Assembly: GCA_032718475.1 (NCBI GenBank)
Contig: JAUCBJ010005428.1
Location: 1 to 54,863, forward strand
Length of the DNA: 54,863 nt
Reading direction: 5' to 3'
Source of the DNA: Nemertoderma westbladi
Taxonomy: Eukaryota; Animalia; Xenacoelomorpha
Made by a program: the position numbers and the translations under genes. The notes below the pieces were generated by a model. That model was not told the origin of the DNA and did not search any database. It saw only the letters and a list, made by a program, of their open reading frames with translations. This document shows positions 5,241 through 45,121 of this stretch, piece after piece (the first letter of the stretch is position 1; every line of letters starts with the position of its first letter).

Positions 5241-5645
5241 CTAATTATGTTGGTTATCGGTAGTTTCTTGCACTTGTTTGAGTTTATCTATAAGAGCCTC
5301 ACCAAAGGTGAGTCTGTACTCGGGACTGACGTTATCTAGCAACTGGTAAATAGTTTCGTAGTAGGGGCTGTTCGTATCCGCGGTTGCTATGGTATCATAC
5401 TGGTAACTAACTACTTTGAACCCAGCGACAGTGAGTTCTACGCAGTATCGTCGACATTCTTTAGTTTCTACGTTTAAGTAGATGAGATCCTCTGACTGCG
5501 GGAGCGACTCGGATATCTGTACGTATCGGACCGCGAAGGCGATCTCTTTGACTGCTGCCGACGCCTCGATAGACAGGAGTTTTTCTTGTTCGCTCTCAAC
5601 TCGACTTCTGCGAGTTTCCGATGGAACTGGCGCCCTCGTGGACAT
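5241..5645 (-). CDS. GSKIP: GSK3-beta-interacting protein (DUF727), intronless CDS, nested antisense in a MAPK15 intron
   Basis: 134-aa ORF with EA..AVKEIAFAV, IYLNVETKE..RYCVELTVAGFKVV and YETIYQLLDNVSPEYR..FGEALIDKL, matching the GSKIP pattern. Confidence 0.9.
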   Translation of the reverse strand: MSTRAPVPSETRRSRVESEQEKLLSIEASAAVKEIAFAVRYVQISESLPQSEDLIYLNVETKECRRYCVELTVAGFKVVSYQYDTIATADTNSPYYETIYQLLDNVSPEYRLTFGEALIDKLKQVQETTDNQHN

Positions 5646-6467
5646 ATTGGCTGATTTGTGTATCGTTAATCGTATGTCTGTACCCTACCCAGGTACCGGT
5701 ATCTGGGTATGTAGGTATAAAATTAATCAACAACTACACCCAACTATCACTGTATCAATCAAAGTAATGCTGTAATGTACCGATAAGGGGGTAGGTCAGT
5801 AGGTAGGTATGAATCATATAAGTATAGAGGCTTATTGACTGATTGGCAGATTGGGGTCAACAGTAGATGTAGAATGGAAGATCATAAGTTCAGTCTAGCT
5901 GTACCTAATGTCAGACTGTAATCAGGTAATACTGTAATAATACTGTAATACAGTAATACAGGCACAGTAGTGTTGTACAGTACATGCACTGCACGCACAG
6001 TAAGCCTGGCGGCTGGCACATGGGCTTCCATATAACAGTATAACTACATTAACTGTATTTTATTAAGTTATTATTCTGTTATTACCTACAATAGAGCAAT
6101 ATGAAATAGAGGACCTACTGCATACTACAGTACTGTTACCGGTACAGAAGCAAGACGTACTATGTAGGCCTATATAATAGTAATAGTACGCCTTGTACAG
6201 AAGCAAAGAATAATCCAATACTGCTACAATATAGAACTACTGGTACTCGCAGTCGCAGTAAGGCAGACCGATGGTAGATGTTTCCACCTCAGGACTATCA
6301 CCTTCAAGCATAGTATCCACTGATTATGGGCCGAATTGTGTGGAGGTGACTGCTGAGCCCTTGGGTCCTGTCCTGAGTGATTTCATATCGCCTAACACAA
6401 TAAGCGACAAATAATAAGCATATAATATAATATAATATATATAATATAACATAATAGGCATTAATAT

Positions 6468-7316
6468 ACACGAAGTGGGGCCTTCGCGCAGCACGTGAAA
6501 TGAGTTAATGCTAAGTATCAACTCGAAAGGATTATAAAAACATAGGATAAGATTTTCCCGGAAAACGTTAACCCTCTAGCGGGAGACTGGGTAACTGAAG
6601 AAGGAAGGATTAGTTTCCCTACAAAGCCACAGCCTATGGTCTATTACATATCTACCAAGTTTCCGATTGACGGATCATAAATAACGAAATGTTGGAAGGT
6701 TTTCACTTTCATACATTTAGCCCTCTAGCGGCATATTAAAGAACTACGGATCGATCACCTTCCTCACAAAGACGAGGCATGTGGTCTAGTACATACCGGT
6801 ACTGTATATTCCAAAATTCAGCTTAAATAGATTAAGATCAAGGAATTCGCGAAGGTTATCACTTTCCTACATTTCGCCCTCTAGCGGCAGACTCGAAAAC
6901 TCCGGACCGATTACTGTCCACACAAAGACTTAGGATGTCTTCTAGTACATATATGACAAGTTTCAGCGTAATCTGATCATAAACAACTAAGTGGAAGAAT
7001 AATTTCACATTCGGGACATTTCGCCCTCTAGCGGCAGACTGGAGAACTGCAGACAGATTAGCCTCCTTTGAAATTTACAGCTAATGGTCTAGTACATACT
7101 TCCCAAGTTTCAGCTTAAACGGATTAAAAGCAAAGAAATGGGTGGCCATTTAATGTTTAGACATGTGGCCCTCTAGCGGGAGACCATTGCGCTGATGGTG
7201 TCTGAAAGTCTCTCAAAAATCTCAACTTTTGATCATATTGATACCTACAAATTTTCAACTTGGCAGCTTTAAATCCGACAAAGTTATTAGCATGTCAAAA
7301 TCGTAACGACGACGAC

Positions 7317-7348
<32 letters not shown>

Positions 7349-8177: not shown

Positions 8178-8327
8178 GTATACGAAAGGAGTAGACATGT
8201 GGTCTCTGGGTTGTATCCTAGGGGAGATGGTTTCAGGCAAACCTATATTCCCTGGTTCGTCTACCCTCAATCAAATCGAAAAAATCATGGGGACAATACC
8301 GGCACCGGACAGAGACGATATACAGAG
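8178..8327 (+). CDS. MAPK15: MAPK15/ERK7-like kinase exon (subdomains IX-X)
   Basis: AAG acceptor; [49 protein letters not shown]; donor AG|GTAAGG; phase 2 to 2. Confidence 0.92.
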
Positions 8328-9180: not shown

Positions 9181-9363
9181 TATAAAATCACCATACGCCC
9201 TTTCCGTACTCGAGAAAGTCAACCCTCGACAGAAGAAGTCCCTCTCTGAAATTTGTCCGGGAGCTTCCAGCGATGCGTTAGATCTAATGGAACAGTTGTT
9301 ATTGTTTAACCCGGACAAAAGGATAACAGCCGAACAAGCATTGCAACACCCTTATGTGGCTAG
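9181..9363 (+). CDS. MAPK15: MAPK15/ERK7-like kinase exon (subdomain XI)
   Basis: TTGCAG acceptor; IKSPYALSVLEK...DALDLMEQLLLFNPDKRITAEQALQHPYVA-R; donor AG|GTGAGC. Confidence 0.92.
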
Positions 9364-10157
9364 GTGAGCACTAACAGTAGACCAAACATTGTGACACCAT
9401 GGCCTACTTAAATACGGCCTGCCAAATGGCAGCAAGGCCAAAAAATTAGTGGGTCGATTTTTCAAAGTTGTGTTGGTTTATATATTTGGATAAAGACAAT
9501 CAAGTTGTTGTATTTTATCTGAAATTTTATGGAGATTTCAAATATGCAATTGGTTTTGCCATACCTTTTTTAGTTTTCGAAATATTTCACGAAAACGAAT
9601 GGGTACCCCAAAAGTGGGTTCAAAAAGTGGGTTCACCATGAAAGTTTCAATAATGCAGAATCTTTAAAACGCACCAGTCACCCATCATTTGCGACCTATA
9701 AAGGTTCTCAAGGGTGGCGAACGTGATGGAAATATTTTCCTAACGAATGGTTTATCTGGTATGCTACTTTTCACTGGGTGCCGAATGTTGGTTCACCCTG
9801 AAAATTTCATTTTTTGGATACATATAATAATACTCATTTATTTGCCATGATTTACAATATACAGTATGTACATCTAAGTAGGCCTATTCTAAGTATTTTC
9901 TAGATGATTCGAATGTACCCAGAATTATAATTTTCACTGGGTAGTAAATGTGGGTTCAACATGAAAATTTCAGTTTTTTTTGGAACCTTCAATACTCTTA
10001 ATCAATACTCTTGATAGTGCGGCCATTTACGATCCATGTAGGTTTTCTTTGACTGGGAATCCAATGCAACTATTTTTTCGATGGGGCTTATCACCTTGAA
10101 TGTTATTTATCACTGAATTTTAAATGTGGGATGAACATGGAAAGTATTATTTTATTA

Positions 10158-10743
10158 GGCCCCCCTCACACGGAGCAACTTGTTTCTGCAACTTGTTTGT
10201 GAAACTTGTTGCTGGACCCCCTCACACACAGAAACTTGTTGCACTGCAATTTGTTTCCGAAACTTGTTTCTGTGTGTGAGGAGTCCAGCAACAAGTTTCT
10301 GCAACTTGTTTCTGAAACTTGTTGCTGGACCCCTCACACACAGAAACTTGTTGCTTCAACTTGTTTCTGCAACTTGTTTCAGAAACTTGTTTCAGCAACT
10401 AGTTGCTGGACCCCCCTCACACGCAGAAACTTGTTGCTCAAGAAAATAACAATTATTTTAAAACAAATAGCTAACATGTCCAGTCATTTATATATAATAT
10501 CACATCACTCAAATTATCGAATATTAGTTCTAATATAAAAATTGGATGTAAAAAAGGTTTTTAAAAAAGTTTCTGGGAATATAACTTCCAGCAACTTGTT
10601 GCTGGATCCAAGTTTCGGACTTTTCGGACTTTTCAGACTTGTTTCGGAAACAAGTTGCATCAACAAGTTTCTGGTGTGATGGGGTCCAGCAACAAGTTTC
10701 AGAAACAAGTTGCAGAAACAAGTTGCTCCTTGTGAGGGAGGCC
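10158..10743. mobile_element. PIF/Harbinger-type MITE nested in the P-like element
   Basis: TIR GGCCCCCCTCACACGGAGCAACTTGTTTCTGCAAC / GTTGCAGAAACAAGTTGCTCCTTGTGAGGGAGGCC; TTA TSD on both sides; many internal AACTTGTT repeats. Confidence 0.85.
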
Positions 10744-10870
10744 TTAGTATTCAACATTAATTGTTTTATATTATTTCATTCAGTGTTATAATTAATAAAT
10801 AATATGAATAATAAAATAGATTTAAACAGTTATTATTGCAGTGTATTAAATATCTGGAAATTTCAAGTTA

Positions 10871-12751
10871 TTATGTTTCCTTGCTGCTTTGGCGAATTTT
10901 GAAAACCTTCACGCTATCTTGCCGGACGGACTGACTCTCGATTATTGCTTTATTGTTGGCAAAAATGTTACTGATTGTCTTGAAAATAATTAGTTTGATG
11001 GTTTCTTCATGATCACCACAACTAAACGTCATATCAAAATTACTACAAAGGAAATCCAAAACTTTGATTGCTACTTTACGATAGTTCTTTGCTGCCTCCA
11101 AATTCTTCTCCCCTATCCACAGTACTTTGAAACATTCACGTACTAGGTTATTCATAGTGAAAGGAGGAATTGTCAGTTTACCACGATTAAGTAAGTCAAC
11201 ATAATGATGATCTTGGACTAAGTTTGTTGTCAAACCTGATGTACATAATGCACAGTTAACATCGGAGAATTTAGAAGTTTGTATGTTATATGGCCAGCTA
11301 CATATATATGCAAATTTCTTTTGTAGTATCATCCAAATCACTGCAGTTGTTCGATATCAATGTTTCTATCTCAGAAATTTCATCCCGAGTTTGTATGGTG
11401 AGCAATCGATCCGAGGTCGAATCACTATGAAGCCAGTCACATAAACTATTCAAAAATGCATATTTCCCGTCATTCAGAACAATAGCATTGCCTATGGGGT
11501 CTGGATGAAAACGTTCTCCAACATTTACCACTAACCACCAATGATGAATCAATTGTAGAAAACTGGCACTGCAGACCTCTTCTGGGAAATAGAACTCACA
11601 TGTCGGAGTGTGAGGTCTGAGGGACTGATACACTGATTCCGGATAAATGGTTGGATATGCCCCTTTAATTAATATTGGTCTCTGCAAACAAACAGAAATA
11701 CAATGCAATATAATATACCGGTAATGAAATATAATATTATAAATTTAACTAAAATTAAACAAAACTAACAATGATATATGTTGATATACAATGATATATA
11801 TATATATATGATATATATTATAACAAAATATAATTATTATACACTATTCCAGAACATAGATAAAATAAAAAATATAATGTTCTAGAACATATAGCTAGTC
11901 ATTTTTCATATTTAAAATGGCTTGTAATAAAAAAAACTACATTTTTTATAACATAAATCATTGTTACCATGCAAAAAATGTAAACTGTTATTATACCGTA
12001 TCATCAATATTTTTGGTCATTAATGTATTCTGAAACAGTTTAAACCTGAAATATCAATGTTTTCACATTTTTTATAATTACAAAAGATACTAGTTACCAT
12101 AAAAAAAAACAAATCTACTAATGTTCTAGAACACAAAAAAATGCAGTATTTTTAGAAATTAAAAAATATGTTGGGCCTAATATACAATAAATCATATATC
12201 AAAAATTAAACCAAAAAATAACTAGCTAGTCAATTAGCTAATGTTCTAGAACACAATATTTTTTTTGAAAAATGTTGCAATGAAGTCGGTTGTAATATTA
12301 CAATATAAAAAGTACATCATTTCATTAATTGATATCAAAATATAAAATGCGACTGCATACGGAACTCTAGCCAAAAAAAATGGAGCAAAAACTAGCTACT
12401 ACAAAAAAATCCCGGTTATGGGTACACATACAATAAGTAGTGCCAATAAATTAATGGTTGAAAAAATGACATGAGGTGTAGACATGGCGAAGAAGTACCC
12501 TTATATCTACTTACATGTTCATTTCGCTTTAGAAACTTCTCTTCGAAGTGCAATATGCAGATTTTCGAATATTTTGTTGGGGACCAATGCTTTTGGGTTT
12601 CGGAATCTAATCGATGTAACATAAATTGCTGCCACTGTGCCAATTCTTCGCGAACTAACGGGAAGCTGAACATCGATTGTGAAGGCCCATCGATGTTGGT
12701 TTGAGAAATAGACCCAGAGCTGCAGCCGTATACGCAGCACTTTCAAACCAT
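10871..12751 (-). pseudogene. THAP-domain P-type transposase remnant (spliced)
   Basis: MV*KCCVYGC...MFSFP...W...SKICILHFEE (C2CH THAP, TGA at codon 3). A GT-AG intron at 11682-12514 joins it to RPILIKGAYPTIYP (AVPTIF-like motif). 10871-11341 carries a CxxC...LNRGKLTIP C-terminal segment. The catalytic core appears largely missing. Confidence 0.8.
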
Positions 12752-13724
12752 CTTCTAGAGTTAATCTTCTTGAACCAACTTATAGTATTAAGCGTAAATA
12801 TAATAATAAGTACTGCACTGAAATGTTTATAGTGGGGGGATTATTATAATTATTATAATAATCTAGAAACCCTTGTTGCTATATCCCACATGAAAACGAA
12901 CAGCGCATTAAAATACGCATTATACACAGAATTTAAGAACAAACATTGAATTGTAGATTCTAGAATGTGCATCATGTCGAATGATGGATGGAGGAAAATA
13001 GCATAGTGACGCCACTGTGCCAATTTTTTGACTTGGCTTTCATCAGATACCAGGTAATTGGATCATGGAGAAAATATTTGCATTGGATTCCCAGTCATAT
13101 AAAACCTACCTGGATCGTAAAAGGCCGCACTATCATGAGTATTGAAGGTTTTCAAAAAATAACTGTAATTTTCATGTTACATTTAGTAGCCAGTGAAAAA
13201 TAGCATACTGGGTTCAATCGAATCATCTAGAAAATACTTTCATTGGATTCCCTGTGTAATCAAATCTCCATAGATTGTAAATCATGGCAAATAAATGAGT
13301 ATTATTATATGTATCCGAAAAATGAAATTTTCATGTTGAACCAACATTCGGCACCCTGTGAAAAGTAGCATACCAGATAAACCATTCGTTAGGAAAATAT
13401 TTCCATCACGTTCGCCACCCTTGAGAACCTTTATAGGTCGCAAATGATGGGTGACTGGTGCGTTTTAAAGATTGTGGATTATTGAAACTTTCATGATGAA
13501 CCCACTTTTGGGGTACCCATTGGTTTTCATGAAATATTTCGAAAACTGAGAAAGGTATGACAAAACCGATTGCATATTTGAAATCTCCATAAAATTTCAG
13601 ATAAAATACAACAACTTGATAGTCTTTATCCAAATATATAAACCAACACGACAACTTTGAAAAATCGACCCACTAATTTTTTGGCCTTGCTGCCATTTGG
13701 CAGGCCGTATTTAAGTAGGCCATG

Positions 13725-14111
13725 GTGACACCCTTATGTGGATAGGTGAGCACTAACAGTAGACCAACCATTGCAATACCCTTATGTGGCTAGGTGAGCA
13801 CTAACAGTAGACCGAGCATTGTAACACCCTTATATGGCGAGGTAAGCACTATCAGTAGACCGAGCATTGCCACACCCTTATGTGGCTAGGTGAGCACTAA
13901 CAGTAGACCAAACATTGTAATACCCTTATGTGGCTAGGTGAGCACTAACAGTAGACCGAGCATTGTAACACCCTTATGTGGTAGGTAAGCACTAACAGTA
14001 GCCCAAACATTGTAACTCCCTTATGTGGCTAGGTGAGCACTAACAGTAGACCGAGCATTGTAACACCCTTATGTGGCTAGGTGAGCACTAACAGTAGACC
14101 AAACATTGCAA
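13725..14111 (+). repeat. 48-bp tandem array (~8 copies) of the MAPK15 exon end ALQHPYVA-R plus splice donor
   Basis: Unit CATTGCAACACCCTTATGTGGCTAG|GTGAGCACTAACAGTAGACCGAG matches 9339-9390. It is continuous with the real exon end once the transposon is removed. Confidence 0.92.
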
Positions 14112-14179
14112 TCTCGGCCCCAACCGGCCGTGAACCTCACCCAGTCCCATTACCTTTCGGAAATGGCCACGACCTTGTC

Positions 14180-14470
14180 ACTACTACTACTACTAGGATC
14201 GGCATGCTGCATTGCAGCTGCATTTTTAAGAATGCTGTGCCGGCTTATCGACAAAATGGCACCGCCACAACTTCCTATCACCCATGACATTTGCTAGATC
14301 ATCCGCATCTTCAAGGCCAGTGTCCTTTAAGATGCGTCTCAAGAAAGTCATGGGCTGTCCACCATGCTTATTCACTCCATGAGGCTGCCAAAGTACAAGA
14401 TTATGCACTGGCTGGTCCTCATGGCGAAAGCAATGTCCTGCAAAGCGGAGGCGTCGCCGCACGACCTTGT
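14180..14470 (-). mobile_element. RTE-clade LINE 3' fragment
   Basis: RRRLRFAGHCFR...LVLWQPHG...GGQPMTF...MGDRKLWR resembles an RTE ORF2 C-terminus; (TAG)n tail on the minus strand at ~14181-14196. Confidence 0.7.
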
Positions 14471-14646
14471 CACACCAGCATAAACGAACAAAAATAACTA
14501 GAAATTGTGTATATTTCACACATTATTATTGGTGAATGTAATCTGGAATTATTAGCACAACATGAAAGAACCGTTTAGTTATGTATTTATACCTGTGTGA
14601 CTGCATAGTTAGTATACCTGTATATTACATATTGATTGCACACACT

Positions 14647-15251
14647 ACTGCACGAACCTAATAAACTAATAGAACTGCACGAACCTAATAAACTAATAGA
14701 ACTGCACGAACCTAATAAACTAATAGAACTGCGCGAACCTAATAAACTAATAGAACTGCACGAATCTAATAAACTAATAGAACTGCACGAACCTAATAAA
14801 CTAATAGAACTGCACGAACCTAATAAACTAATAGAACTGCACGAACCTAATAAACTAATAGAACTGCACGAACCTAATAAACTAATAGAACTGCACGAAC
14901 CTAATAAACTAATAGAACTGCACGAACCTAATAAACTAATAGAACTGCACGAACCTAATAAACTAATAGAACTGCACGAACCTAATAAACTAATAGAACT
15001 GCACGAACCTAATAAACTAATAGAACTGCACGAACCTAATAAACTAATAGAACTGCACGAACCTAATAAACTAATAGAACTGCACGAACCTAATAAACTA
15101 ATAGAACTGCACGAACCTAATAAACTAATAGAACTGCACGAACCTAATAAACTAATAGAACTGCACGAACCTAATAAACTAATAGAACTGCACGAACCTA
15201 ATAAACTAATAGAACTGCACGAACCTAATAAACTAATAGAACTGCACGAAC
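14647..15251. repeat. 27-bp minisatellite, left block (~22 copies)
   Basis: Unit CTGCACGAACCTAATAAACTAATAGAA, near-perfect copies. Confidence 0.97.
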
Positions 15252-15260
15252 ACGAACGAA

Positions 15261-16360
15261 CGTGTAGGATGCTGGATAGGCACTTATTTCTTGGGTGCAC
15301 TAGCATACGCGGATGATATTTTCTTGCTGTGCCCATCTCTGTGCGGCCTTCAGTTTATGGTTTCATTATGCGAAAGATTTGCACAAGATAATGATTTAGT
15401 TTTCAGTACAAATGTAACTCCAGAGAAGTCTAAATCGAAATGTATTGCATTCAGCAACTCGACGCGTTGGAGGGAACCTGCTGCCAGAATACATTTAAAT
15501 GGTCACGATTTGCCATGGGTTCGTGAGGCAGTTCATTTGGGGCATGTTTTTGATTTTCGCAATAGTATGGTGTCTGATGTACTGAAAAAACGCGGCCAAT
15601 TAATAGGTAAATTAAATGCACTAAGACAAGAGTTTTATTTTTCTGATCCTTATTTATTGTGCGATATCCAGCGGATTTACGCAACTTGTCTTTTTGGGAG
15701 TAATCTATGGGACCTTTTTTCAGACAGTACATCTAGAATTTATACATCGTGGAATATTAATATTAGATTAATATTCAGATTACCTTACAATACACATAGA
15801 TTTATTGTAGAGAATTTGGTACCTTTTAAGCATCCGTGCGTAATGTTGCAAACTCGTTATGTTAAATTTGTTAACTCTTTACTCACATCTAATAAACGTA
15901 TTATACGATTTTTGGCTGAACTGTGCGTTTTTGATTGTAGGACACGTTCGGGCACAAATTTACGAAATATTGGTAACCGGTGTAACATATATAATTTACG
16001 TTCTCTGGTCCCAAGGTTTGCTAATAGTTTGAGTTATGCACATGTGCCTGTTGGTAATGAATGGCGGGTTCCTTTGTTACAAGAACTTATTAATTGTCGG
16101 TTAAATAACGCTAGTGTTCCCGGTTTTGATTCTCTTGAACTAGATAATATTATAAATTTTGCTGCCACTGCATGATTCTTCTCTTAGTTTGTTGGTTAGG
16201 GTTTAATACACTTACATATTACCAATATTTTGTCTTGTTTCTGTTTCAGTCTGTGCTTTTGTTATTTTATAGTTTAGGTGGTCGATTTGTGCACATTAAT
16301 TACGGTGTACCAAACTATATTTTGTTTGTTTGTGTATGAAATTAAATTAAATTAAAATTA
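15261..16360 (+). mobile_element. 5'-truncated non-LTR retrotransposon (RT C-terminal part, 3' UTR, (AAATT)n tail) inserted in the 27-bp array
   Basis: Open frame RVGCWIGTYFLGALAYADDIFLLCPS...HLGH to the stop at 16175 (RT YADD motif); AT-rich 3' UTR and AAATT repeat tail at ~16339-16360. Confidence 0.88.
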
Positions 16361-17412
16361 AATAAACTAATAGAACTGCACGAACCTAATAAACTAATAG
16401 AACTGCACGAACCTAATAAACTAATAGAACTGCACGAACCTAATAAACTAATAGAACTGCACGAACCTAATAAACTAATAGAACTGCACGAATCTAATAA
16501 ACTAATAGAACTGCACGAACCTAATAAACTAATAGAACTGCACGAACCTAATAAACTAATAGAACTGCACGAACCTAATAAACTAATAGAACTGCACGAA
16601 CCTAATAAACTAATAGAACTGCACGAACCTAATAAACTAATAGAACTGCACGAACCTAATAAACTAATAGAACTGCACGAACCTAATAAACTAATAGAAC
16701 TGCACGAACCTAATAAACTAATAGAACTGCACGAACCTAATAAACTAATAGAACTGCACGAACCTAATAAACTAATAGAACTGCACGAACCTAATAAACT
16801 AATAGAACTGCACGAACCTAATAAACTAATAGAACTGCACGAACCTAATAAACTAATAGAACTGCACGAACCTAATAAACTAATAGAACTGCACGAACCT
16901 AATAAACTAATAGAACTGCACGAACCTAATAAACTAATAGAACTGCACGAACCTAATAAACTAATAGAACTGCACGAACCTAATAAACTAATAGAACTGC
17001 ACGAACCTAATAAACTAATAGAACTGCACGAACCTAATAAACTAATAGAACTGCACGAACCTAATAAACTAATAGAACTGCACGAACCTAATAAACTAAT
17101 AGAACTGCACGAACCTAATAAACTAATAGAACTGCACGAACCTAATAAACTAATAGAACTGCACGAACCTAATAAACTAATAGAACTGCACGAACCTAAT
17201 AAACTAATAGAACTGCACGAATCTAATAAACTAATAGAACTGCACGAACCTAATAAACTAATAGAACTGCACGAACCTAATAAACTAATAGAACTGCACG
17301 AACCTAATAAACTAATAGAACTGCACGAACCTAATAAACTAATAGAACTGCACGAACCTAATAAACTAATAGAACTGCACGAACCTAATAAACTAATAGA
17401 ACTGCACGAACC
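16361..17412. repeat. 27-bp minisatellite, right block (~39 copies)
   Basis: Same unit as 14647-15251. Confidence 0.97.
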
Positions 17413-33773: not shown

Positions 33774-33938
33774 AGACCATCTCAATCAGAATCTACCCAA
33801 TCAGTACAGAGACACGTTTCCGCACCTGTAAGGGGAACCAATAGGGGGTCTACGTTCTCTTCAGCTCTGAGGAATCCCACGGTGTTGAGAGAAGATAGAC
33901 AACCTCAGTCGAATCTTACTGTAACCAGTTCTAGAATG
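33774..33938 (+). CDS. MAPK15: MAPK15 C-terminal extension exon (predicted)
   Basis: CAG acceptor, RPSQSESTQ...VTSSRM, donor GTGAGT; phase 0 to 0. Confidence 0.68.
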
Positions 33939-34034
33939 GTGAGTCACATTAATTAACCGACCAATGTTCAATATATTACACTTATTAACAGTATCGGAAT
34001 TATAACAATTTATGATATAATTAATAGCCCGAGT

Positions 34035-34463
34035 TCAATTTATTTTGTATTCATCACCATTACCTTTGGTACACTTGGTGTCCAAACTGTGTTTATCGTT
34101 GTAAACAGCCTGTAATATTTCTACTCTCTCTTTATTCCAAACTATTGCGTGGTAGGCCTCCGTTACGTTAGTTGCTAGGTAACCAACGCCAAACAGACCT
34201 AGAAGATTGGCCAATCTCGGCTGGCTCACTGTACATTTACACGTCTCCATGGTAACCCTCGGGTAGTAGTGCAGGTAGTTAACGCACATTTCTTGGTCCA
34301 GACCCATGCCGCTGACTGTGACGTCATTACGATTTCTGGTGTCATAGAAACATTCCGTTCTCATCTCATCCCCTGGGTACACTGTGACCGGGGGTAGGAT
34401 GGTGTGTATCAGTTGGAACCAGGTAGAGAAGTGGGGGTCCTTGTCTAAGGTAGACCAATTACC
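34035..34463 (-). CDS. DBH/TBH-like copper type II monooxygenase, exon 3
   Basis: TTGTAG acceptor; DPHFSTWFQ...PGDEMRTECFYDT...EMCVNYLHYYP (CuM Met); stop at 34035. Confidence 0.88.
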   Translation of the reverse strand, partial: GNWSTLDKDPHFSTWFQLIHTILPPVTVYPGDEMRTECFYDTRNRNDVTVSGMGLDQEMCVNYLHYYPRVTMETCKCTVSQPRLANLLGLFGVGYLATNVTEAYHAIVWNKERVEILQAVYNDKHSLDTKCTKGNGDEYKIN

Positions 34464-34574
34464 CTACAATACAAACATTTTTGTTAGAATTACTGTTATA
34501 TGGAATGTGAGTTAATATCAGTAAATTAAGTCGAAATTCCTTATAACAAACAAGTACAGGTAGTGTGATAAACC

Positions 34575-35620
34575 CTTGTGTTAAACATTTATTACCACAT
34601 ATAAGCTTCTCCTACCTTGTGGAAACATTTGTTACCACTGACCTCTCCTACCTTGAGGTAAACATTTCTTACCACTGGCCTCTCATACCTTGTGTTGAAC
34701 ATTAATTACCATACCAATATAAGCTTCTATTACCTTGTGGTAAACATTTGTTACCACATATAAGCTTCTCCTACCTTGTGGTAAACGTTTGTTACCTCTG
34801 ACCTCTTTTACCTTGAGGTAGCATTTCTTACCACTGGCCTCTCATACGTTGTGTTAAACATAGTTATTAATATAAGCCTATCTTACCTTGTGGTAAACAT
34901 TTCTTACCACTGGCTTTTCCATTCTTGTGGTAAACATTTCTTACCACTGGCCACCACACATCTCTTCTATCTTGTGGTAAACATTTGTTACTAATGGCCT
35001 CTCCTTTCTTGTGGTAGACATTTGTTAATACTGGCCTCTCCTACCTTGTGGTAAACATTTGTTACTACTGGCCTCTCCTACCTCGTGGTAAACATTTCTT
35101 ACCACTGGCCTCCCATACCTTGTGTTATGCATTAGTTACCAATATATACGCCTCCCTCCCATACCTTGTGGTAAACATTAGTTGCCACTGGCCTCTCCTA
35201 CCTTGTGGTAAACATTTGTTACTACTGGCCTCTCCTACATTGTGGTAAACAATTGTTTCTATTGGCCTCTCCTGCATTTGTAAACATTATTGTTACCACC
35301 CATCTCTCATTTGGTAAACATTTCTTACCACTGGCCTCTCATACCTTGTGTTAAACATTAGTTACCACTGACCTATCCTACCTTGTGGTAAACATTGGTT
35401 GCCACTGACCTCTCTTACCTTGAGGTAAACATTTGTTACCACTGATCTCTCATACCTTCTGTTAAACATTAGTTACCACTGACCTATCCTACCTTGTGGT
35501 AAACATTGGTTGCCACTGACCTCTCTTACCTTGATGTAAACATTAGTTACCACTGGTCTCTCATCCCTTGTGTAAACATTTGTTACCACTGACCTCTCCT
35601 ACCTTGTGGTAAACATTTGT
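34575..35620 (-). repeat. Degenerate ~37-bp tandem array (~27 copies) of the monooxygenase exon 2 end plus splice donor
   Basis: Minus-strand unit ACAAATGTTTACCACAAG|GTAGGAGAGGTCAGTGGTA; the first copy is the real exon end (TNVYHK|GT). Confidence 0.85.
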
Positions 35621-35781
35621 TCGAACTTCAGTTCCTACAAGGTGACTATGGAGTTGTGAGCCGAATACGTTGATCCCATTGGTTGGAAGAGCTTCCTCTG
35701 TGCATTGTGATGGACAATGACATCCCCATTTGAAGTTGGGTTGTAATGGGGGTATAGCTAATCGGTTGTTATAAACAACGC
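35603..35781 (-). CDS. DBH/TBH-like monooxygenase, exon 2
   Basis: TTTCAG acceptor; G-VVYNNRLAIPP...HCPSQCT..ALPTNGINVFGSQLHSHLVG (CuM HxH); donor GTAGGA. Confidence 0.9.
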
Positions 35782-35887
35782 CTGAAAGGATACATAATAA
35801 ACCTATAACCACAGTCATGAGGGAAATATACGAGACCTATAAAGCTTTCAAGGAAATATAGTCTATTTCGAATGATGCAGAATCTGA

Positions 35888-36170
35888 ATTATACTGTCAC
35901 TACATTATACTGACACTACATTATACTGACACTACATTATACTGACACTACATTATACTGTCACTACATTATACTGACACTACATTATACTGACACTACA
36001 TTATACTGACACTACATTATACTGACACTACATTATACTGACACTACATTATACTGACACTACATTATACTGACACTACATTATACTGACACTACATTAT
36101 ACTGACACTACATTATACTGACACTACATTATACTGACACTACATTATACTGACACTACATTATACTGAC
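35888..36170. repeat. 16-bp minisatellite (~17 copies)
   Basis: Unit TACATTATACTGACAC. Confidence 0.95.
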
Positions 36171-36284
36171 TGGTTCCAAAGTTTAAAACAAAATATTATA
36201 TCTCACAACATGCAAGGCACTTTATGACAATGATTATTATATTTTTGACAATGATATTATTATTTCCTATTAGTGTCTTTGATT

Positions 36285-39200
36285 CTGAGAGACGAACATA
36301 GTTAATAAAAGGTCAAACACATACCGACATGCAGTGAATACTTTCACTTTTTCGGTATTTATTGCAAATCGATTAGTGTATTTGCTTCTAAGAGACGAAC
36401 ATAGTTAATAAAAGGTCAAAGACATGCCGACATGCAGCGAATACTTTCACTTTTTCTGTATTTATTGCAAATCGATTAGTGTATTTGCTTCTGGGAGACG
36501 AATACAGTTAATAAATGGTGAAACACATATCTCATTATTGAATGTTTGAAACTCGGAACATAGTAATCTCCATATTAATACCTGGCTTATTATTGTATAC
36601 TGATTTTAGTATAGTAGTGTTGAAGTTGTGTAGTAGTTATAGGTAATACTCGTAATATAATAAATGTTCAATATCAATCAGCTGCCTAATAAGGGCCAAT
36701 AAACAGTGGAACTAAGCGTATGACTGGATTTGTGGCTGCCATGCCGTAGAGAAAAATATGGTATAATTAAGGTGGAAATAATCTCTCAAAGAAAGAAAGA
36801 TGGCGAGAGCGCCTTTCTCAAGAAGATCATGAAATACAATCTGCAAGATTGGAAAAAGTTCGATCTCGAGCTTCTCAAAGGCGTTCACAGGAAGATGACA
36901 AAGAAAAATCTACAAGATTGTAAAAAGAGCTATCTCGAACCACTCAGTGACGTTCCCAAGAAGACGATGGAAGACGATCTGCTCGATTGTTAACACTGAG
37001 GACTAGAGCAGATGAAAGGCATTCTGAGGAAGATGATTCATTGAAGCTTGCCAATGCTAATCAGAGGCATACAAACTCCAAAATTCAACTGTTACCAATT
37101 GGTCATATGACTTGATATGTGGCACTTATCCAAAAAGTCGCACTTTTCATGACCACATTATGTGGTATAATGGAGCCTTCAAATTGACCAGCACCGGTAT
37201 GAAATTGGCTCCTGTCAAAGATTGTTTAGCCTAGCAGCCATCGATCCGCATCCAATGAACAGTGTACTACCGCCTAATCGGAAGCCTCCTACCTCAAATT
37301 GAGGAGAAGCCTTCTCATTTCTGTCCAGTTTTCTTTCTTGGAGGTGGTGAGAGAGAAGTCTCCCACCGACTAGCACGAGCTCCAGATAGTGTTGATCGTT
37401 CTATCATGGATTATCTCCAAAAAATGATGCATGATAACAATTCTTGTCACATCATTCAAAGCGGTTGTTTCTTTTCTCCATAATCAACATGATGAGAATG
37501 AATATCAGGTAGTCATTGATGCTGACAAGATGGCAGCCGATGGATATCCACAATATCGAAGGCATTCTCCAGAAGATGGGGACAGTTTGCTAACATTCAT
37601 GCTTGGAGGCGCGGTACCTATCTGGGAGTCGACATCGACAACCGTTTGGTTGTACCTTATAATCAAACTTTACTTAGACGATACAAAGCCCACATCAATC
37701 TGGACATCTGTGTCTCCATCCACTCAATCAAATATGTGGTGAGCTACATTCAGAAAGGCTGTGATATGGCTGTCTATGCAATCAAGAATCCCAAAGATGA
37801 CATTTCCCGTTATGAAGTCGGTCGTTATATAGGCCCTACTGAAGCAGTATGGCGAATCTTCGAATTTGACATACACTATCAATATCCGGCTGTAATTAGC
37901 TTGGCTGTACACCTTGAAAGAATGCAGCAAGTATACTTCCGGAGAGGTGAAGAAAATAGAGCTATTGAGAGTCCATGAGAAACTACATTGACATCATTTT
38001 TCCGCCTGTGTGAGAAGGATGCATTTGCAAAGACTTTTCTTTACAGTGAAGTTCCAAAATACTTCACATATGTCCAACAGCATGGATGGTTGAGGAGGGA
38101 ACAGGGAATCAATCACCCTACTGATTCTGGAATTGTATCAACAGGAAACATTGGGAGGATATACACAGTCAGTCCCAGACAGCGAGAAATGTTCTTCCTC
38201 AGGATGCTACTCAAATATGTTCGGTTCGTGGTCCAACATCATTTGATAATCTCAGGAACATAACCGGGTACCTGTACCACTTATGGGAAAGCCTGTCGAC
38301 GTATGGGATTAACGGCAGATGATGGAATTCTGGTATGAGTGAAGCCAGTGTTGTCAAGAAACCAAATGCCCTCAGGATCCTTCTTGGAGTGATCTTAGTA
38401 TGTGGTGACCTCTCTCACTTTGGATAAATCATAAACGATCTCTTTCTGAAGATATTTTATACAGAGTTCGACATGATCGAAGGAACCCTGATCTAGAACT
38501 CGATTTTGCTATTGAAAACGAGTGCATATCTGACCTTCAAAAAACCATCACCAGTATTGGAGGAAGTAGCTTGATAGAATATGGGCTCCCAGTGTACCTG
38601 ATCCTAGATCTCTGATTGAAGACGAATCATCAAGTTTGGTCACTGAGAATGATATTCGGATTCTTAACGAAGACCTCAATCATTTGACAGAGGAGCAGAG
38701 ATCGATATATGAAACCCGACACCATAATAGCAGCTATAGCAAACAATAGCGGGGTCATTTGCACAAAGAGTTTCCAAATTGCGTCCCCTGTAATTTCGCC
38801 ATTTTATAAGCCATAACTCAGCAGAAAATAACCAAAACCATATAAACCTTTCTATACTGTAGAGTGAATTTTTGCCCATTTTTACTCTATACTGTAGAGT
38901 GAATTTTTGCCCATTTTTACTCTATACTGTAGAGTGAATTTTTGCCCATTGTTTGGCATTGTTTTTAACCAATTTGACATACATTTCTATAGGATCACAA
39001 GCATGAAATGACATTTTATGCGATGTCCCATTCTATGTTTTTCATGAAATGACATTTTATGCGATGTCCCATTCTATGTTTTTGAGATACAAACAATCAT
39101 AACCAAATGTTAGTAAGAGATACTTCCAGTAAACTATATTTCGGCCAAAAGCTTATTTCGTGATCTACAATCCAGTACTAGTTTAAAATTTACTAAAAAA

Positions 39201-41359
39201 TACTACTTTAAAATTTCTTTTTGAAGCGATAAAAAAATGCTATAAATTCGTTTTTAGAAATTTTTTATGTGTTGTAACGCTCGTTTTTTTTTAAGGTAAC
39301 TTTTGAGTGTGAAATGTGTATGTGTCAAAGTAAGTATTTTCCGAAAAATAATTTTATTGGCTACCGTATATATACGATTGAATGCGAAACGATAAGTCTA
39401 ACAGAAGTTATGCCCAAAAGTTAACCAAGCAGTTTTTTTTACGTCATTGGAGATGTCCCCCTTGTAACGCCCTTATTTTCGCTCTAACTTTTCTTCTACA
39501 AATCGGATTTACTTAATTTAAAGTTTTTTTAGACCGTTTCTGTAGGCGCTATCTAATGATATACAAGGTCAAGCTTTCCCTTTTACCTAACGAGATTGCT
39601 AAACATGTCCCCAATTGTCCTGCACGTAACGGTATGTAACGCATTGTAACGCAGTCTCACTAAAAGATGAGAAAGCATGCACAGAAAGATGTAACGCTAC
39701 TAAACTGTCGTTACACCTTAGTTACAGATGAGACATGTCCATGTCCAAAACGTAACGCATTTTTAAACAAGGAAATTTATATGAGACAAAGCGTTACCGA
39801 CGAGTCATACGTTTTTCGTCCATAACTTTTTTTACTATTGGTAGAAAAAATGAACCACTATGAAATTTGAAATCAGCACGCTAAGTGCTTTCGAAATATG
39901 TATGATTTGATAGGGTTGGCAAAAAAAATGTTAACCTTGAATTTGGCAATTGATTTGTGCAAACGACCCAGCGGAGGTATCTTCTTTGTTGATGCTCCTG
40001 GTGGAACTGGGAAAATGATGCTGTTAAACACGATCATCAGATCCGTCCAATGCAATCAAACAGGAATCGAGTTGCCCGTTCAGGAATAGCCGCCACTTTA
40101 TTAGATGGTGGGAGGACTGCTCACAGTGGCTTCAAAATCCCTCTAAATGTAACTAAACTGGATGATGACTGACTTTGTTCATTCAAATCAAACTCACATG
40201 AGGCTGACAATTTAAAGAAAACTGCTATAATAGTTTGGTATGAAGAGATGGCTGTAGAGATGGTAGATTGCTCTCTCTCCGCCACTTACTTGAACAACCC
40301 CTCCGTCCCATGGGTGGGATAGTAACTGCATTTGCTGGGGATTTCTGGCAAGAATTCCTGTGATAATACATGGAACAAAAGCAAATACGCTTGACCATAG
40401 CCTCAAGAGCTCACCATTATTGTGGTCTTTGATGGTTAAGAAGAGTCTTACTAAAAACATGAGACTTCTTCTGGGTTAAGATACAGAAGCTGAAGAATAC
40501 CATCACTTCCCTTTGTCTATTGGTGAAGTGACCCATCCAATAAATGAGGCAGGGGATAGCTTTGCCAAGTGACATTGTATTCCCATAAGACTCCACATTA
40601 GAAGATGTTTACAACTTTATATATGGTTCTGTCCTCGATGATCGTTCAATTTTGACTCCACTAAATTCAACTGTCGATGAGATCAACTTATTCTACATCT
40701 ATAAGTTTCCTGGAGACCCGATTGAGTACCACTCCATTGATCACGCTGAAGATGAGAAGATACAAAATTTCCAGTTGAATTTCTGAACACTCTCACTCCA
40801 TCTGGTTTGCCTCCCCACCTCCTTATTCTCAAACCAGGAGTTCCAGTGATGATGACACGAAATCTCGACCCTCCTCGGTTGTGCAATGGAACCCGTCTAC
40901 TTATCACAGATCTCCATCCAAATGTAATCGAGGCTCGGATTGCAACAGGACCTCATAATGGAGAGGATGTTTTTATCCCGAGAATTCCACTCACGCCGTC
41001 AGATGGATCCTGCCCTATTAGATTTAAACGTTTACAATTCCCTTTGCGTCCAGCCAGGGCAATGACAATCAACAAGGCACAGTGATAAACTCCGAAGAAG
41101 TTTGTTGGTTATCATTTACTCATGGCCTGGCCAGCTACTTTATATGTTCTGCTTTCCCGGGTGACAACAGCCCATTGCACTATAAAACTGTTTTCGCCAA
41201 ACTCGGTAGCCAAAAATGTAGTATTCTATGAGATTTTTAAAATGTCTTGAAATTAAGTTGATATTTTTCTGAATTATTTATTTTGGTTTTATTTATAGTA
41301 ATAAAAGGAATTACATCAAAATTCATTATTAACTTGCTAGGCTTGCTAGTTATACTAGT
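36285..41359 (+). mobile_element. Decayed Helitron (Rep/PIF1 helicase pseudogene); boundaries approximate
   Basis: Fragments VVPYN..L..YKAHIN, RYIGPTEAVWRIFEFDIH, FVDAPGGTGK (Walker A), PPHLLILKPGVPVMMTRNL...CNGTRL and QFPLRPARAMTINKAQ, with many stops and frameshifts; CTAG candidate 3' ends at ~41340-41359. Confidence 0.88.
38752..39969. mobile_element. Non-autonomous TIR element with 4-bp TSD (Sola2-like?) inserted in the Helitron helicase
   Basis: TIR GGGTCATTTGCACAAA / TTTGTGCAAACGACCC; AGCG duplicated at 38748-38751 and 39970-39973. Removing it restores IANNSGGIFFVDAPGGTGK. Confidence 0.82.
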
Positions 41360-41485
41360 TGATACAATTAATACAAAATTGCACGAACAATATTATGAAT
41401 TAGTGACATTCAGTTATTATCAGGTGTTTCTTTCATGATTGGGAGTTTCCAACCTCATAAGATCCATCTTCAACCAGCATTGACA

Positions 41486-42524
41486 TTATAAATCGCTTAA
41501 ACTCTTTTCAGCCATAGCTATCGCCCCCTCGTACGTTTTATTCGCCCCAATGAAGCCGTTAGCGTGTACGAACACACAACCAGGAATCCCGCTAACTCCG
41601 CTCAATACATCATCACGCATTCCCCGCCAACCCTCGGGTAGAGAACGCCGGTTCTCGAAGGAATCAGAGTCGATGGGGACGCAAATAACCCCATAGGATC
41701 CCTCCTTATTCTGGAACACAATGTAAAGAAGCGGATCCATGACACCTAGAGATTTTTCCAACCCAAACAAATGGTCCCGCCAAGTGCAAAATCTCTCGAG
41801 GAAGATGATTCTCCCACTATTGTGTATCTCGAATCGGCGTTTTATCGCGAGTTCTACGAGACTTCTCGCGGGTAGCCAAACGTGTGCGAAATGATTGATA
41901 CGATCTATAAACTCACTCCCCACCAAATCCATCGCTTTAACGAATAATTCCGCCACTTCCTCTTCGCTTTTCTCGCAGTTCCAAGGAGGATTTAAGTAAC
42001 CAATCCTAGAACTAACTCCGCTATTAATGTTGTATCGGGATTCCCCATCGTGGGTTGATATACCGATAGCGTCGATCTATAGCGTCGATCTCTTGGATAA
42101 AACTTCGGTAGATTTTCACGAAAAGTTCCTCTGCTGTGGAATTGTCAACTAGAGTTTTTGAATCTCCGTGGGAATTATTTAAAACCTCGCGAATAACTGG
42201 AATACCGAAATGGTAATAAACCAGTCCGGCACTAGATAGCTTGGTGGTAAATTCGTAGACGGGGTTTAGGGAGTTGAGTGAGTGGTTGAATCCGCGTTGG
42301 TGGTGGTCGAATCGGTCGGACTCCGGGTCGTAGACCCCACCCACATCTACGACTACGTCGCAGTCATTTAGCACATCTTTATCCCGACTACGGATTATTC
42401 GCGCGTCTTTATACTTCGGCAATAAACGCAACATGAAACAGGCGAGCGCTTCGTCGCAATGGAATGTACCACTGTGTGTTCCGATTTTAGGTGCCCCTGT
42501 GCAAATGCGTTTAATAGCCGACAT
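41486..42524 (-). pseudogene. MYG1: MYG1 exonuclease, intronless, with one frameshift at ~42066-42091 (pseudogene, null allele or assembly error)
   Basis: IGTHSGTFHCDEAL, DVGG, FDHHQ, KLSSAGL and EIDAID, then after the shift GISTHDG..RY...LNPPWN, WRGMRD and GCVFVHANGFIG. Confidence 0.9.
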
Positions 42525-44049
42525 GGTTATTGGCTTATAAAGTTGAGTTACTGGTACAATACAGACAGCTGTACTTTGTGTGGCCTACACTGTCAAACTG
42601 GTACTGCTGTTGAGATAATAAAGGACGTATTATTATTATTACAGTCAGACAGTACTACAGTACTAGTATTAATACTGCTCTGTAGGGGAGCGAGATCCAA
42701 GAGATCCTTCTTAGCGAGATCGGACAGTGAAAATGATGAGTCGTCAATGATGAATTTAAATTTCCCGCTATTAGGCAGGGTTCTTAACGAAGAAGAGCAG
42801 CCCTATTTTTAACGAACCTGGCTCAACTAGATCTATCTCATTAAACACATGTCTGCTCTTGGGACGTTGGGTGATTTAGTGGCACTAGTTAAGAGCTTCG
42901 GTGTTGTATTACAAAGTCGCCCATAATGTGAAGAATACCAGGTTTTCACTTTTCGATCTTTTGACATTTTATATATGAAAAGTTTTTTTTTTAGTTTTTA
43001 TTTTTATTATTACGTTTGGTGTTAGACACGAAAGTAAGCGAGCTTAGCATACAGGTACCACTAACTCAATCGGTGTGCCTGTCGTTCTGTCGTGTCCAAT
43101 TTTAAACATTAATAACTCGACCAATCCTCTATGAAATCTAACCAAACTTGGTACACATGTTGTTTGGAAAAAGTTTATAAATTGTCCAAGTTGAATTTGC
43201 GTGTGACCTTCGTGAAGCTAAGATAAAAGCAGTTAATTTGTTTATTAAGTTGATTACGATAAAGAAACAGCATTTTTCTGCCAGTCCTTTAATGGAAATT
43301 AATTATTTTCTAATATAAGATATAAATAATTATATTTAAAAAGTATACAGCTGCAATCCCCATACCCCATTCCATCATAGTTTTTAAGAAATGTGTTTTT
43401 AATTGATCAAACGTAATCTGTCCACACCCTATACTTCCAGCTCCCCTATACCATGGAGTGCTTGCTATTGTCTAGCTGGGAACCAGTCCCACCTCACCAC
43501 AGTAGTAGCCAGACTAATAAGCCAGCTTGCATGTTGTTGATTGGCTGAGTATTTAATCGTAATTCTTTAGAACTAGTGACGGGCCTAGAATGCCCGATAA
43601 GGAACTGACCTTTTTTGTACCGGTTATGAATTTGAGTTCCTGAATTTAGAATAATAATTTCGTTGATGTGTTGACATGGTAAATTAATATTTCAGTGTCA
43701 ATACTATCGGCATAAGGTAAGTTTTAATATTTCCTACAAATTGGGTCGCCTCCACGCCTAAAATATATTTAATATATTTCTGTTAAAAAATAAATTTCCT
43801 GTTAATACCTGTCTTTCATAAATCCTCTGTGCGTTTGGGTTGGGGTGGTGCAGTTTAAGAGGGGGGTTGAAGGGGAGGAAACTTTCCCCGCGAAAAATCA
43901 GAGAGGGGTCTAAAAATGCCAGAAATGAAAATGGGGCGAAAAAATATAATAATGGGGGAATGATAGGGAGAGAGTGAAGAAGAAAATCGAAATAAACACA
44001 TATTTAATTGAATTAATGATAAAATGTTGCTTGGGAATAATTAACTGAC

Positions 44050-45121
44050 CTAATTCGAGCACGCCGGCGTTATGTTCGCGCAGGTTGTGTGATAGATACC
44101 ATCTCAAGCCGGAACTGTCAATCACTCCAGCTAGTCTATCTGGGTTGTTGTAATGAATCTGCAGAAACAGTAATTTTGGTGCGCCGCGTCCGCCTATAGG
44201 AAACCCCGCGTTGTCGGGGTAATAGAACATTCTAGAACCCATAGCCCATGGAGTTACTGTTTGTTTACACCGTTGTCTTAGCAACCGCTGGGAGTGATTG
44301 TGGCACGGCTCCGATAAGGTGCGACCACGGATTACTGACTCAGGTAGTCCGTCACAGAGATACGCCTCTATGTGGTGGGCCAGATTATGGTTGCTGGGCG
44401 ACGATGACAGCACCGCGTCATATGCTATTATCTGATGGGGAGCGTGTAATCTGGAAAGATCGTGTGTGACGCACCAGTAGGTTGTGACGTCACTAGGTAT
44501 GGTAACGTTGGCGACGCGAACGTCGTAGATTACGGTGTCTGGTGGTAGACGGTGCCGGTCGCAGCGCTCAAACAAATCGACACGCTTCAAACTTTTCCTC
44601 GAGATGGAATCTTTTACGTTCTTGTTGATGACGTCATCGGTTGTGATACACCTCCCATATAAAACATTGGTTGTTCCCTGTTCCAGAATTAAATCGTTTC
44701 CATCGTTAGTGTTCAACCCCCGTTGTATAATTATTGAGTGCTGATCTGCTGACTTTGTGACGATGTAGTTCTGTTCCTGGTCTTTACTGGCCAATCCTCT
44801 CCCGTCTATATACGCATCCACTATATGTGCTGAACCTGTCTCTATGGCAACCAAATCCGCATCCACCCATAGCCCTCTATCGGAGAACCCCAGAACTATA
44901 CATTGAGGTTGTTCTGCTGCAGCTCTCTCTGAATCTTTGTACGTTTTTGGTTTCATTTGAACTTGTAAATGGATATCATCTCCGGATAATTTCCACTGTA
45001 ATATAATTTGGTTTTCTCTTTTACCCAGTACTGTTCCGCACCACTCATCATTGTCGTCTCCCTGCACCGATATTATTACCATCAGTATCAATGTAGCGAC
45101 TGTAGTTTTAATAGAGCACAT
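44050..45121 (-). CDS. DBH/TBH-like monooxygenase, exon 1 (signal peptide, DOMON, Cu2_monooxygenase N domain)
   Basis: Hydrophobic N-terminus, GFSDRG...ADLV, TTYWC, AHHI (CuH), WAMG, QIHYNNP, DSSG and AGVLELG; phase-1 donor GTCAGT. The three exons total 1680 nt (559 aa). Confidence 0.9.

What the first reader, a model, noticed from the sequence alone, without database searches (positions are those of the whole stretch)
5241..45121. One kinase gene hosts six nested protein-coding genes
Seen: phase-compatible MAPK15 exons bracket GSKIP, a peroxiredoxin, RCAN and an F-box/LRR gene (three of them in the single 21.4-kb intron 9364-30802), plus a DBH-like gene and MYG1 in intron 33939-45798. Established: nested genes are known, but usually one or two per host. 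Five of the six have intronless CDS, although RCAN, PRDX and MYG1 are multi-exon in vertebrates. Inference: retro-relocation or wholesale intron loss of housekeeping genes into introns may be an organising feature of this genome.
Basis: partly seen in the sequence, partly recalled or inferred. Interest (0 to 1): 0.8.

Follow-up and report, generated by a model that had tools for sequence, protein, structure and literature searches.

The report
Kinase gene hosting six other genes
In an invertebrate animal, six unrelated protein-coding genes, one of them inside another, sit within the introns of a single kinase gene, and most have likely been copied there through their mRNA; multi-gene nesting is known from flies and comb jellies, but here the passengers are mostly old housekeeping genes.

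Summary
The layout is real. Nine MAPK15 exons (8178-46017) join into one open 489-residue frame collinear with animal MAPK15. One 3,112-nt spliced contig carries the exons from 30803 to the 3' UTR, and its length accounting skips intron 33939-45798 exactly. The 9364-30802 splice rests on homology and the contig's remaining length; it was not seen directly.

Corrections: MYG1 lies inside intron 1 of the three-exon DBH-like gene, so it is doubly nested, and the window's allele is frameshifted (intact length in three other runs). The exon upstream of GSKIP is present only as a 73-bp tandem array.

RCAN, the F-box gene and MYG1 are covered by unspliced transcript-like contigs. RCAN and GSKIP lack introns that homologues have, while the host keeps ten introns. 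This favours retro-relocation over wholesale intron loss. Parental copies and the genome-wide claim could not be tested (no genome held).

Several passengers per host and Russian-doll nesting are published (up to 13 in Drosophila; 484 doubly nested genes in Hormiphora). The scan earlier noted single nested housekeeping genes in other genomes, nothing for this one. Verdict: an unusually dense member of a known kind.

The parts
814..2903 (+). 73-bp tandem array (28.7 copies) made of the 3' end of the MAPK15 activation-loop exon plus its splice donor and 14 intron bases; the working exon is probably upstream of the window (inferred)
5241..5645 (-). GSKIP, single-exon CDS, 134 aa, in the intron ahead of exon 8178; expression not tested
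8178..8327 (+). MAPK15 exon (kinase subdomains IX-X)
9181..9363 (+). MAPK15 exon ending the kinase domain
9364..30802 (+). 21,439-bp GT-AG intron holding peroxiredoxin, RCAN and the F-box gene; splice inferred from homology and contig length
9398..13724 (-). DNA transposon with terminal inverted repeats, a 7-bp flanking duplication and a THAP remnant; it splits a 48-bp exon-end array from exon 9363
17885..18517 (-). 2-Cys peroxiredoxin (Prx1/2 type), single-exon CDS, 210 aa; expression not tested
24509..25252 (+). RCAN/calcipressin, single-exon CDS, 247 aa, same strand as host; unspliced contig 24330-25340 in X4; weak sign of a 5' UTR intron 24188-24329
28588..30177 (+). F-box-domain gene, single-exon CDS (ATG at 28588 or 28696), same strand as host; unspliced contig 28501-30383 in X4; poly(A) loose end at 30343 in X5
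30803..33938 (+). six MAPK15 exons: 30803-30964, 31087-31280, 31688-31885, 32008-32144, 33478-33531, 33747-33938, on one spliced contig
33939..45798 (+). 11,860-bp GT-AG intron holding the DBH-like gene and, within it, MYG1
34035..45121 (-). dopamine/tyramine beta-hydroxylase-like gene, exons 44050-45121, 35603-35781, 34035-34463, open 560 aa; antisense to the host
34574..35621 (-). 37-bp array made of the end of DBH-like exon 2 plus its donor; fills most of intron 2
37526..41228 (+). decayed PIF1-helicase element (Helitron-like, by recall) in DBH-like intron 1, ending next to the 3' end of MYG1
41486..42524 (-). MYG1, no intron, doubly nested on the strand of the DBH-like gene; frameshifted near 42060 in the window and X3, 7 letters shorter in X1, X4, X5
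45799..46017 (+). last coding exon of MAPK15 (stop at 45997-45999)
46147..46828 (+). MAPK15 3' UTR exon after a 129-bp intron

Best explanation
Six separate genes lie in three introns of one MAPK15 gene, and GSKIP, the peroxiredoxin, RCAN, MYG1 and probably the F-box gene likely arrived as reverse-transcribed mRNA copies that gained their own promoters there. Shown: the layout; the spliced host contig from exon 30803 to the 3' UTR; unspliced contigs over RCAN, F-box and MYG1; absence of introns that RCAN and GSKIP homologues carry. Inferred: the host is transcribed through the passengers and removes them as intron; each passenger is its own transcription unit; long, repeat-filled introns served as neutral landing sites. 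The three passengers on their host's strand (RCAN, F-box, MYG1) would have been tolerated because their coding sequences bring no splice sites, while the only multi-exon passenger (DBH-like) is antisense. Whether the parents were lost is untested.
For: One 3,112-nt contig of run X4 covers 46828-46145 as letters 1-684 and 33941-33746 as 899-1094, then on to 30801 at letter 1840 with GT..AG joints. This leaves exactly the 219 letters of exon 45799-46017. RCAN (24330-25340) and F-box (28501-30383) contigs have no gaps, and X5 shows a poly(A) end at 30343. MYG1 contigs have no intron-sized gap. RCAN: 15 of 40 related loci have an intron at the site the window reads through, 10 of them a second one; vertebrate RCAN has three conserved coding exons (PMC3896409, passages). 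GSKIP: 18 of 20 N-half-only hits among 150 stop at the same residue pair. The host keeps ten introns. A likely non-LTR retroelement fragment lies in the same intron (lead only). Nesting typically arises by RNA-mediated insertion (PMC5174743); same-strand passengers are mostly single-exon, 72.5% against 37.4% (PMC3814207); 80-85% of bilaterian retro-relocations lost the original gene (PMC13689697).
Against: No genomic poly(A) tract (longest A-run 3-6 within 320 bp of the six stops) and no flanking direct repeat above 10 bp (three genes tested), so no direct scar of retroposition. No parent or ancestral location could be sought. Ancestral introns were tested only for RCAN and GSKIP; for peroxiredoxin, MYG1 and DBH they are recalled, and F-box genes may be single-exon by descent. 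The 15 RCAN loci stand for about 8 distinct sequences of unnamed eukaryotes; 25 of 40 loci read through the site (11 short, probably transcripts; 14 divergent). The host's introns are not all shared: 10 of 18 short homologues read through the site before 8178, and 12 of 18 break three to four codons before the window's donor at 8328. DNA-based moves outnumber retro-moves about 5 to 1 in bilaterians. The DBH-like gene has two introns.
Confidence: 0.55

Rival explanations
1. The passengers lost their introns in place (cDNA recombination at highly expressed genes) and were moved into the host's introns as DNA, by transposon capture, repair or small inversions; short intronless genes simply move and survive more easily.
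For: DNA-based translocations outnumber retrotranspositions about 5:1 and short genes move more often (PMC13689697). A PIF1-helicase element abuts MYG1 and a THAP transposon lies in the large intron. The three-exon DBH-like gene must have moved as DNA or gained introns later. No retro scars.
Against: It needs two separate events per gene, for four conserved genes. No passenger lies between the ends of a recognisable element.
Confidence: 0.27
2. The lineage lost introns widely, so single-exon genes are the norm, and the density of passengers only reflects a genome in which most sequence is intron.
For: Five of six passengers have single-exon CDS and the DBH-like gene has only three exons. One host intron is displaced from the common site. 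A glass sponge genome combines 12,409 single-exon transcripts with 2,432 nested genes (PMC10282587).
Against: The host keeps ten introns in the window, six of them 122-853 bp, one at a site shared with 8 of 18 short homologues.
Confidence: 0.11
3. Part of the region is misassembled: one or more passengers (peroxiredoxin, RCAN, GSKIP) were joined in at satellite arrays and really lie elsewhere.
For: The large intron holds five long tandem arrays. No DNA contig spans any whole stretch, and the contigs over DBH-like exon 1 and the last kinase exon overlap by only 30 letters.
Against: The window has no N. The DBH-like exons sit at the two ends of the intron that the spliced contig skips and give an open 560-aa frame. 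The exon-9363 array resumes beyond the transposon with a matching flanking duplication. A false passenger would need two misjoins.
Confidence: 0.07

Closest known systems
Complex nested gene structures of Drosophila (PMC5174743 and PMC3814207; abstract parts and passages read)
   Same: Several protein-coding genes in one host (as many as 13), a few Russian-doll cases, RNA-mediated origin typical, same-strand passengers mostly single-exon.
   Different: Drosophila passengers tend to be young, fast-evolving and testis-biased; here four belong to old conserved families (GSKIP, Prx1/2, RCAN, MYG1).
Nested intronic genes of the ctenophore Hormiphora californensis (PMC8527503; passages read)
   Same: 2,357 nested genes in 1,654 hosts, 484 doubly nested, many parallel to the host, about half flanked by transposons; a figure shows four genes in one host.
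   Different: The passages do not treat intron loss or retro origin (0 hits for 'retro'); the window's kinase groups with spiralian animals (no ctenophore was named among the rows).
'Orphan' retrogenes that replaced their parents (PMC3548309, abstract only; PMC13689697, passages and section 25)
   Same: Intronless, conserved, functional copies of normally multi-exon genes.
   Different: They are rare and scattered (25 in human; 650 retro events among 170,754 bilaterian orthologues), not clustered in one host; loss of the parent is not shown here.
Glass sponge Aphrocallistes vastus genome (PMC10282587; passages read)
   Same: Many nested genes (12.4% of genes) and many single-exon genes.
   Different: A compact genome with short introns; the window has long repeat-filled introns and an intron-rich host.
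Amphioxus 'mirage' minisatellites (PMC3087553; passages read)
   Same: Tandem copies of an exon-intron boundary that do not stop normal splicing; three such arrays lie in this window.
   Different: A side feature of the locus; two of the arrays here appear cut off from their exon by later insertions (shown for the 48-bp array, inferred for the 73-bp array).

Membership tests
MAPK15 (ERK7/8) host gene | exons collinear with named MAPK15 proteins, in one open frame | tested here: met
   489 aa open; named top hits are mostly MAPK15/ERK2-like proteins; the C-terminal conserved block also matches
Nested intronic genes | passenger lies wholly between two exons that are joined in the host transcript (intron 33939-45798: DBH-like, MYG1) | tested here: met
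   one 3,112-nt contig, length accounting exact; identity of the contig across the two calls is inferred from equal length and depth
Nested intronic genes | same, for intron 9364-30802 (peroxiredoxin, RCAN, F-box) | tested here: inconclusive
   the contig leaves the genome at 30801 and runs on for 1,272 letters, enough for the upstream exons; those letters were not shown. Homology and phase agree
Nested intronic genes | same, for the intron holding GSKIP | tested here: inconclusive
   the upstream exon is seen only as array copies; no reads laid there
Nested intronic genes | passenger is transcribed as its own unit | tested here: met
   RCAN, F-box, MYG1 have separate contigs in X4 and X5; GSKIP and peroxiredoxin not tested; DBH-like not covered
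Doubly nested (Russian-doll) genes | a passenger inside the intron of another passenger | tested here: met
   MYG1 lies in 35782-44049; this DBH-like splice is predicted from an open frame, not seen in RNA
Retrogene | lacks introns that orthologues have at matching sites | tested here: met
   RCAN and GSKIP (indirect); not tested for peroxiredoxin, MYG1, F-box, DBH-like
Retrogene | poly(A) remnant and target-site duplication | tested here: not met
   expected to decay in old copies, so weak
Retrogene | new location relative to the ancestral, intron-bearing locus | not testable with these tools
   no genome; the synteny tables of PMC13689697 could not be read
Orphan retrogene | parental copy absent from the genome | not testable with these tools
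   X1 and X3 contigs run unbroken over MYG1, which speaks only against a near-identical second copy
Mirage minisatellite | repeat unit spans an exon-intron boundary of the same gene | tested here: met
   73-bp, 48-bp and 37-bp arrays

The most novel reading that the evidence does not exclude
This animal lineage has moved a large share of its single-copy housekeeping genes by retroposition, lost the intron-bearing parents, and parked the copies inside the introns of other genes, where a short palindromic promoter element (TACCGGTA, found within 500 bp upstream of 5 of the 6 passengers) switches them on. The genome would then be organised as intron-rich hosts filled with intronless essential passengers, far above the under-1% background of other bilaterians.
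Probability: 0.25. Interest if true: 0.75.

Novelty: new member of a known kind. Interest (0 to 1): 0.45.

Why it matters
As a single locus it is a dense, well-supported case of gene nesting: six passengers in about 40 kb, three on their host's strand, one doubly nested, which annotation pipelines often miss. It offers a compact test of how a host avoids premature polyadenylation at the RCAN and F-box ends. If the pattern holds across the genome, it would show retroposition replacing housekeeping genes at a rate well above that measured in 46 invertebrates, and would change how intron loss and synteny decay are read in this lineage.

Tried and rejected
No RNA holder was listed by the run search; X4 and X5 are labelled 'DNA?' and are read as RNA here because they show GT..AG joints, a poly(A) end and no cover in several intron bins where X1 and X3 have cover. 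X4 and X5 give no cover on DBH-like exon 1 or most of exon 3: no evidence either way.

MYG1 break as a simple assembly error: not supported, since X3 carries the same 1,648 letters without a difference; it looks like an allele. Zygosity cannot be told from contigs.

Kinase-F-box fusion: an acceptor at 28629 is in frame with the host donor at 9364, but five in-frame AG sites lie in that open stretch and the F-box contig runs through unspliced; rejected for lack of support. No good in-frame acceptor leads into RCAN.

A seventh passenger: ORFs 10871-11332 and 15357-16175 have no Pfam match; the first lies inside the THAP transposon, the second resembles clusters of which one has 19% reverse-transcriptase members. 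Treated as mobile-element remnants. No tRNA and no Rfam family.

Naming the organism: none of 8 proteins is in the collection by exact sequence; best identities are 75% (peroxiredoxin), 42% (RCAN) and 84% over one kinase exon. A tree of 57 rows (56 of the 120 kinase hits plus the window) puts it on a long branch in a 25-row set whose named rows are molluscs, annelids, a brachiopod, a nemertean and a flatworm (95/80); sampling is biased toward such hits.

Literature: ten searches returned no paper on this locus or on genome-wide nesting of intronless housekeeping genes in a spiralian; the library lacks most subscription papers. The supplement of PMC13689697 (exon counts and ancestral chromosomes per family) could not be read and bears directly on the retro claim.
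Full report
The window is animal DNA of about 38% G+C with many tandem arrays and transposon remnants and no N. No whole genome is held. A kinase tree places it, on a long branch, among molluscs, annelids, a brachiopod, a nemertean and a flatworm (25-row set, support 95/80; 56 of 120 hits used). No close annotated relative turned up. It is likely a spiralian invertebrate; nothing finer is claimed.

The host. A 49-residue exon finds 917 proteins; the named ones among the best 120 are mostly MAPK15 or ERK2-like. Fourteen of them, laid on the window, give collinear pieces from 8176 to 45990. Nine exons with AG/GT ends join into one open 489-aa frame matching residues 196-596 of a 601-aa homologue. 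The N-terminal 195 residues lie outside the window, except that the end of the activation-loop exon with its donor forms the unit of the 73-bp array at 814-2903.

Transcript evidence. Six runs were listed, none on record as RNA. X4 and X5 behave as RNA: GT..AG joints, a poly(A) end, and no cover in intron bins that X1 and X3 cover. One X4 contig of 3,112 letters and depth 69.7 covers 46828-46145 as letters 1-684. A contig of the same length and depth covers 33941-33746 as 899-1094, 32144-32007 as 1148-1285, 31884-31688 as 1286-1482, 31280-31085 as 1483-1678 and 30962-30801 as 1679-1840. Exon lengths reproduce every one of these positions and leave exactly 219 letters for exon 45799-46017. So the transcript skips 33939-45798. 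Beyond 30801 it continues for 1,272 letters that do not match the adjacent DNA; exons 9181-9363 and 8178-8327 would take 333 and leave 941 for the missing half and a 5' UTR. Those letters were not displayed, so this splice is inferred.

The passengers. GSKIP, a 2-Cys peroxiredoxin, RCAN, MYG1 and a copper monooxygenase are clear by Pfam; the F-box call is marginal and backed by the Atlas. The monooxygenase matches human dopamine beta-hydroxylase at E 2.5e-44 and has three exons giving 560 aa. RCAN (24330-25340) and the F-box gene (28501-30383) are covered by gap-free X4 contigs, MYG1 by X4 and X5 contigs without an intron. MYG1 is frameshifted in the window and in X3, and 7 letters shorter in X1, X4 and X5: an allele rather than a plain assembly slip. 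GSKIP and the peroxiredoxin were not tested for expression; the DBH-like gene had no cover.

Did the passengers lose introns? For RCAN, 15 of 40 related loci have an acceptor at the site matching residue 143/144, and 10 of these a donor at residue 198; the window reads through both. The 15 are about 8 distinct sequences; the other 25 read through (11 short, probably transcripts; 14 divergent). Vertebrate RCAN genes share three conserved coding exons (PMC3896409, passages). For GSKIP, 20 of 150 hits cover only the first half, and 18 of them lose similarity right after the residue matching K77, at a valine as a GT donor would give; this is indirect. For the host, 8 of 18 short homologues start at the same site as exon 8178 and 10 read through; 12 of 18 break three to four codons before the window's next donor; one mollusc model ends exactly at the site of the 21-kb intron. 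So the host keeps ten introns, at least one at an old site, while the passengers lack theirs. Multi-exon structure of peroxiredoxin, MYG1 and DBH in other animals is recalled, not tested.

Mechanism. The simplest reading is insertion of reverse-transcribed mRNAs into long introns, followed by gain of a promoter. It explains loss of introns and relocation in one step. It agrees with published patterns: RNA-mediated origin of nested genes (PMC5174743, passages), single-exon bias of same-strand passengers (PMC3814207, passages), and loss of the parent in 80-85% of bilaterian retro-moves (PMC13689697, section 25). Here all three same-strand passengers have single-exon CDS and the one multi-exon passenger is antisense. 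Against it: no poly(A) or target-site scars, no access to parents, and DNA-based moves are five times commoner. I give retro-relocation 0.55, in-place loss plus DNA move 0.27, lineage-wide intron loss 0.11, partial misassembly 0.07.

A lead. The palindrome TACCGGTA occurs 16 times outside the first array and within 500 bp upstream of 5 of 6 passenger start codons, against 17% of random windows (binomial 0.0008). The motif was chosen after seeing it, so this is a lead only.

Comparison. Nested genes are about a tenth of genes in well-annotated animals. Drosophila hosts hold up to 13 genes with a few Russian dolls; Hormiphora has 484 doubly nested genes; in mammals the 95th percentile is 3-4 per host, all gene types counted (bioRxiv 10.1101/2023.05.02.539096, passages). 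Six coding passengers is thus the upper tail, not a new kind. What is less usual is that four belong to old conserved families: a 46-species survey counts 650 retro events among 170,754 bilaterian orthologues. The window was picked for this feature, so one locus cannot show a genome-wide rule. Ten literature searches found no account of this locus. Earlier scan notes hold nothing on this genome or on look-alike DNA and several single nested housekeeping genes in other animals.

Verdict. Observation confirmed with corrections; interpretation partly supported; new member of a known kind; interest 0.45, rising to 0.75 if the pattern proves genome-wide (probability about 0.25).

Noticed in passing
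window 814-2903, 13721-14108, 34574-35621: Three tandem arrays (73, 48, 37 bp) are each built from an exon's 3' end plus its splice donor, two from MAPK15 and one from the DBH-like gene: 'mirage' repeats, three within 35 kb.
   Followed up: partly
window 9398-13724: A THAP-domain DNA transposon with long terminal inverted repeats and a 7-bp flanking duplication sits inside the 48-bp array; an unrelated inverted-repeat element lies within it near 10157-10744.
   Followed up: partly
window 42040-42110: MYG1 frameshift with a 13-bp local duplication; present in the window and X3, absent in X1, X4, X5. Possibly a segregating null allele of a housekeeping gene.
   Followed up: partly
window 37526-41350: Decayed PIF1-helicase element whose end lies next to the antisense 3' end of MYG1 (contigs end at 41262-41329); the element may supply MYG1's poly(A) signal.
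   Followed up: no
window 15252-16360: Likely 5'-truncated non-LTR retroelement with a 272-aa open frame, inserted in the 27-bp array.
   Followed up: partly
window 5694, 6137, 18594, 18949, 24148, 28205-28492, 45480, 51354: An 8-bp palindrome recurs upstream of five passengers, and near 51350 in a stretch of similar make-up that may be the promoter of a neighbouring gene.
   Followed up: partly
window 8328: This kinase donor lies about 10 bases downstream of the site where 12 of 18 short homologues break: a possible slid or regained intron.
   Followed up: no
window 31455-31530, 45550-45615, 49625-49700: tRNA-like stretches seen by eye, possibly SINE heads; ARAGORN and Rfam call none.
   Followed up: partly
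window 46984-48691: X4 contigs with several differences cover this stretch beyond the 3' UTR piece; a longer UTR or a transcribed repeat.
   Followed up: no
L012-L016: These RCAN loci keep the first conserved intron but lack the second; L010 from a similar collection lacks both.
   Followed up: no
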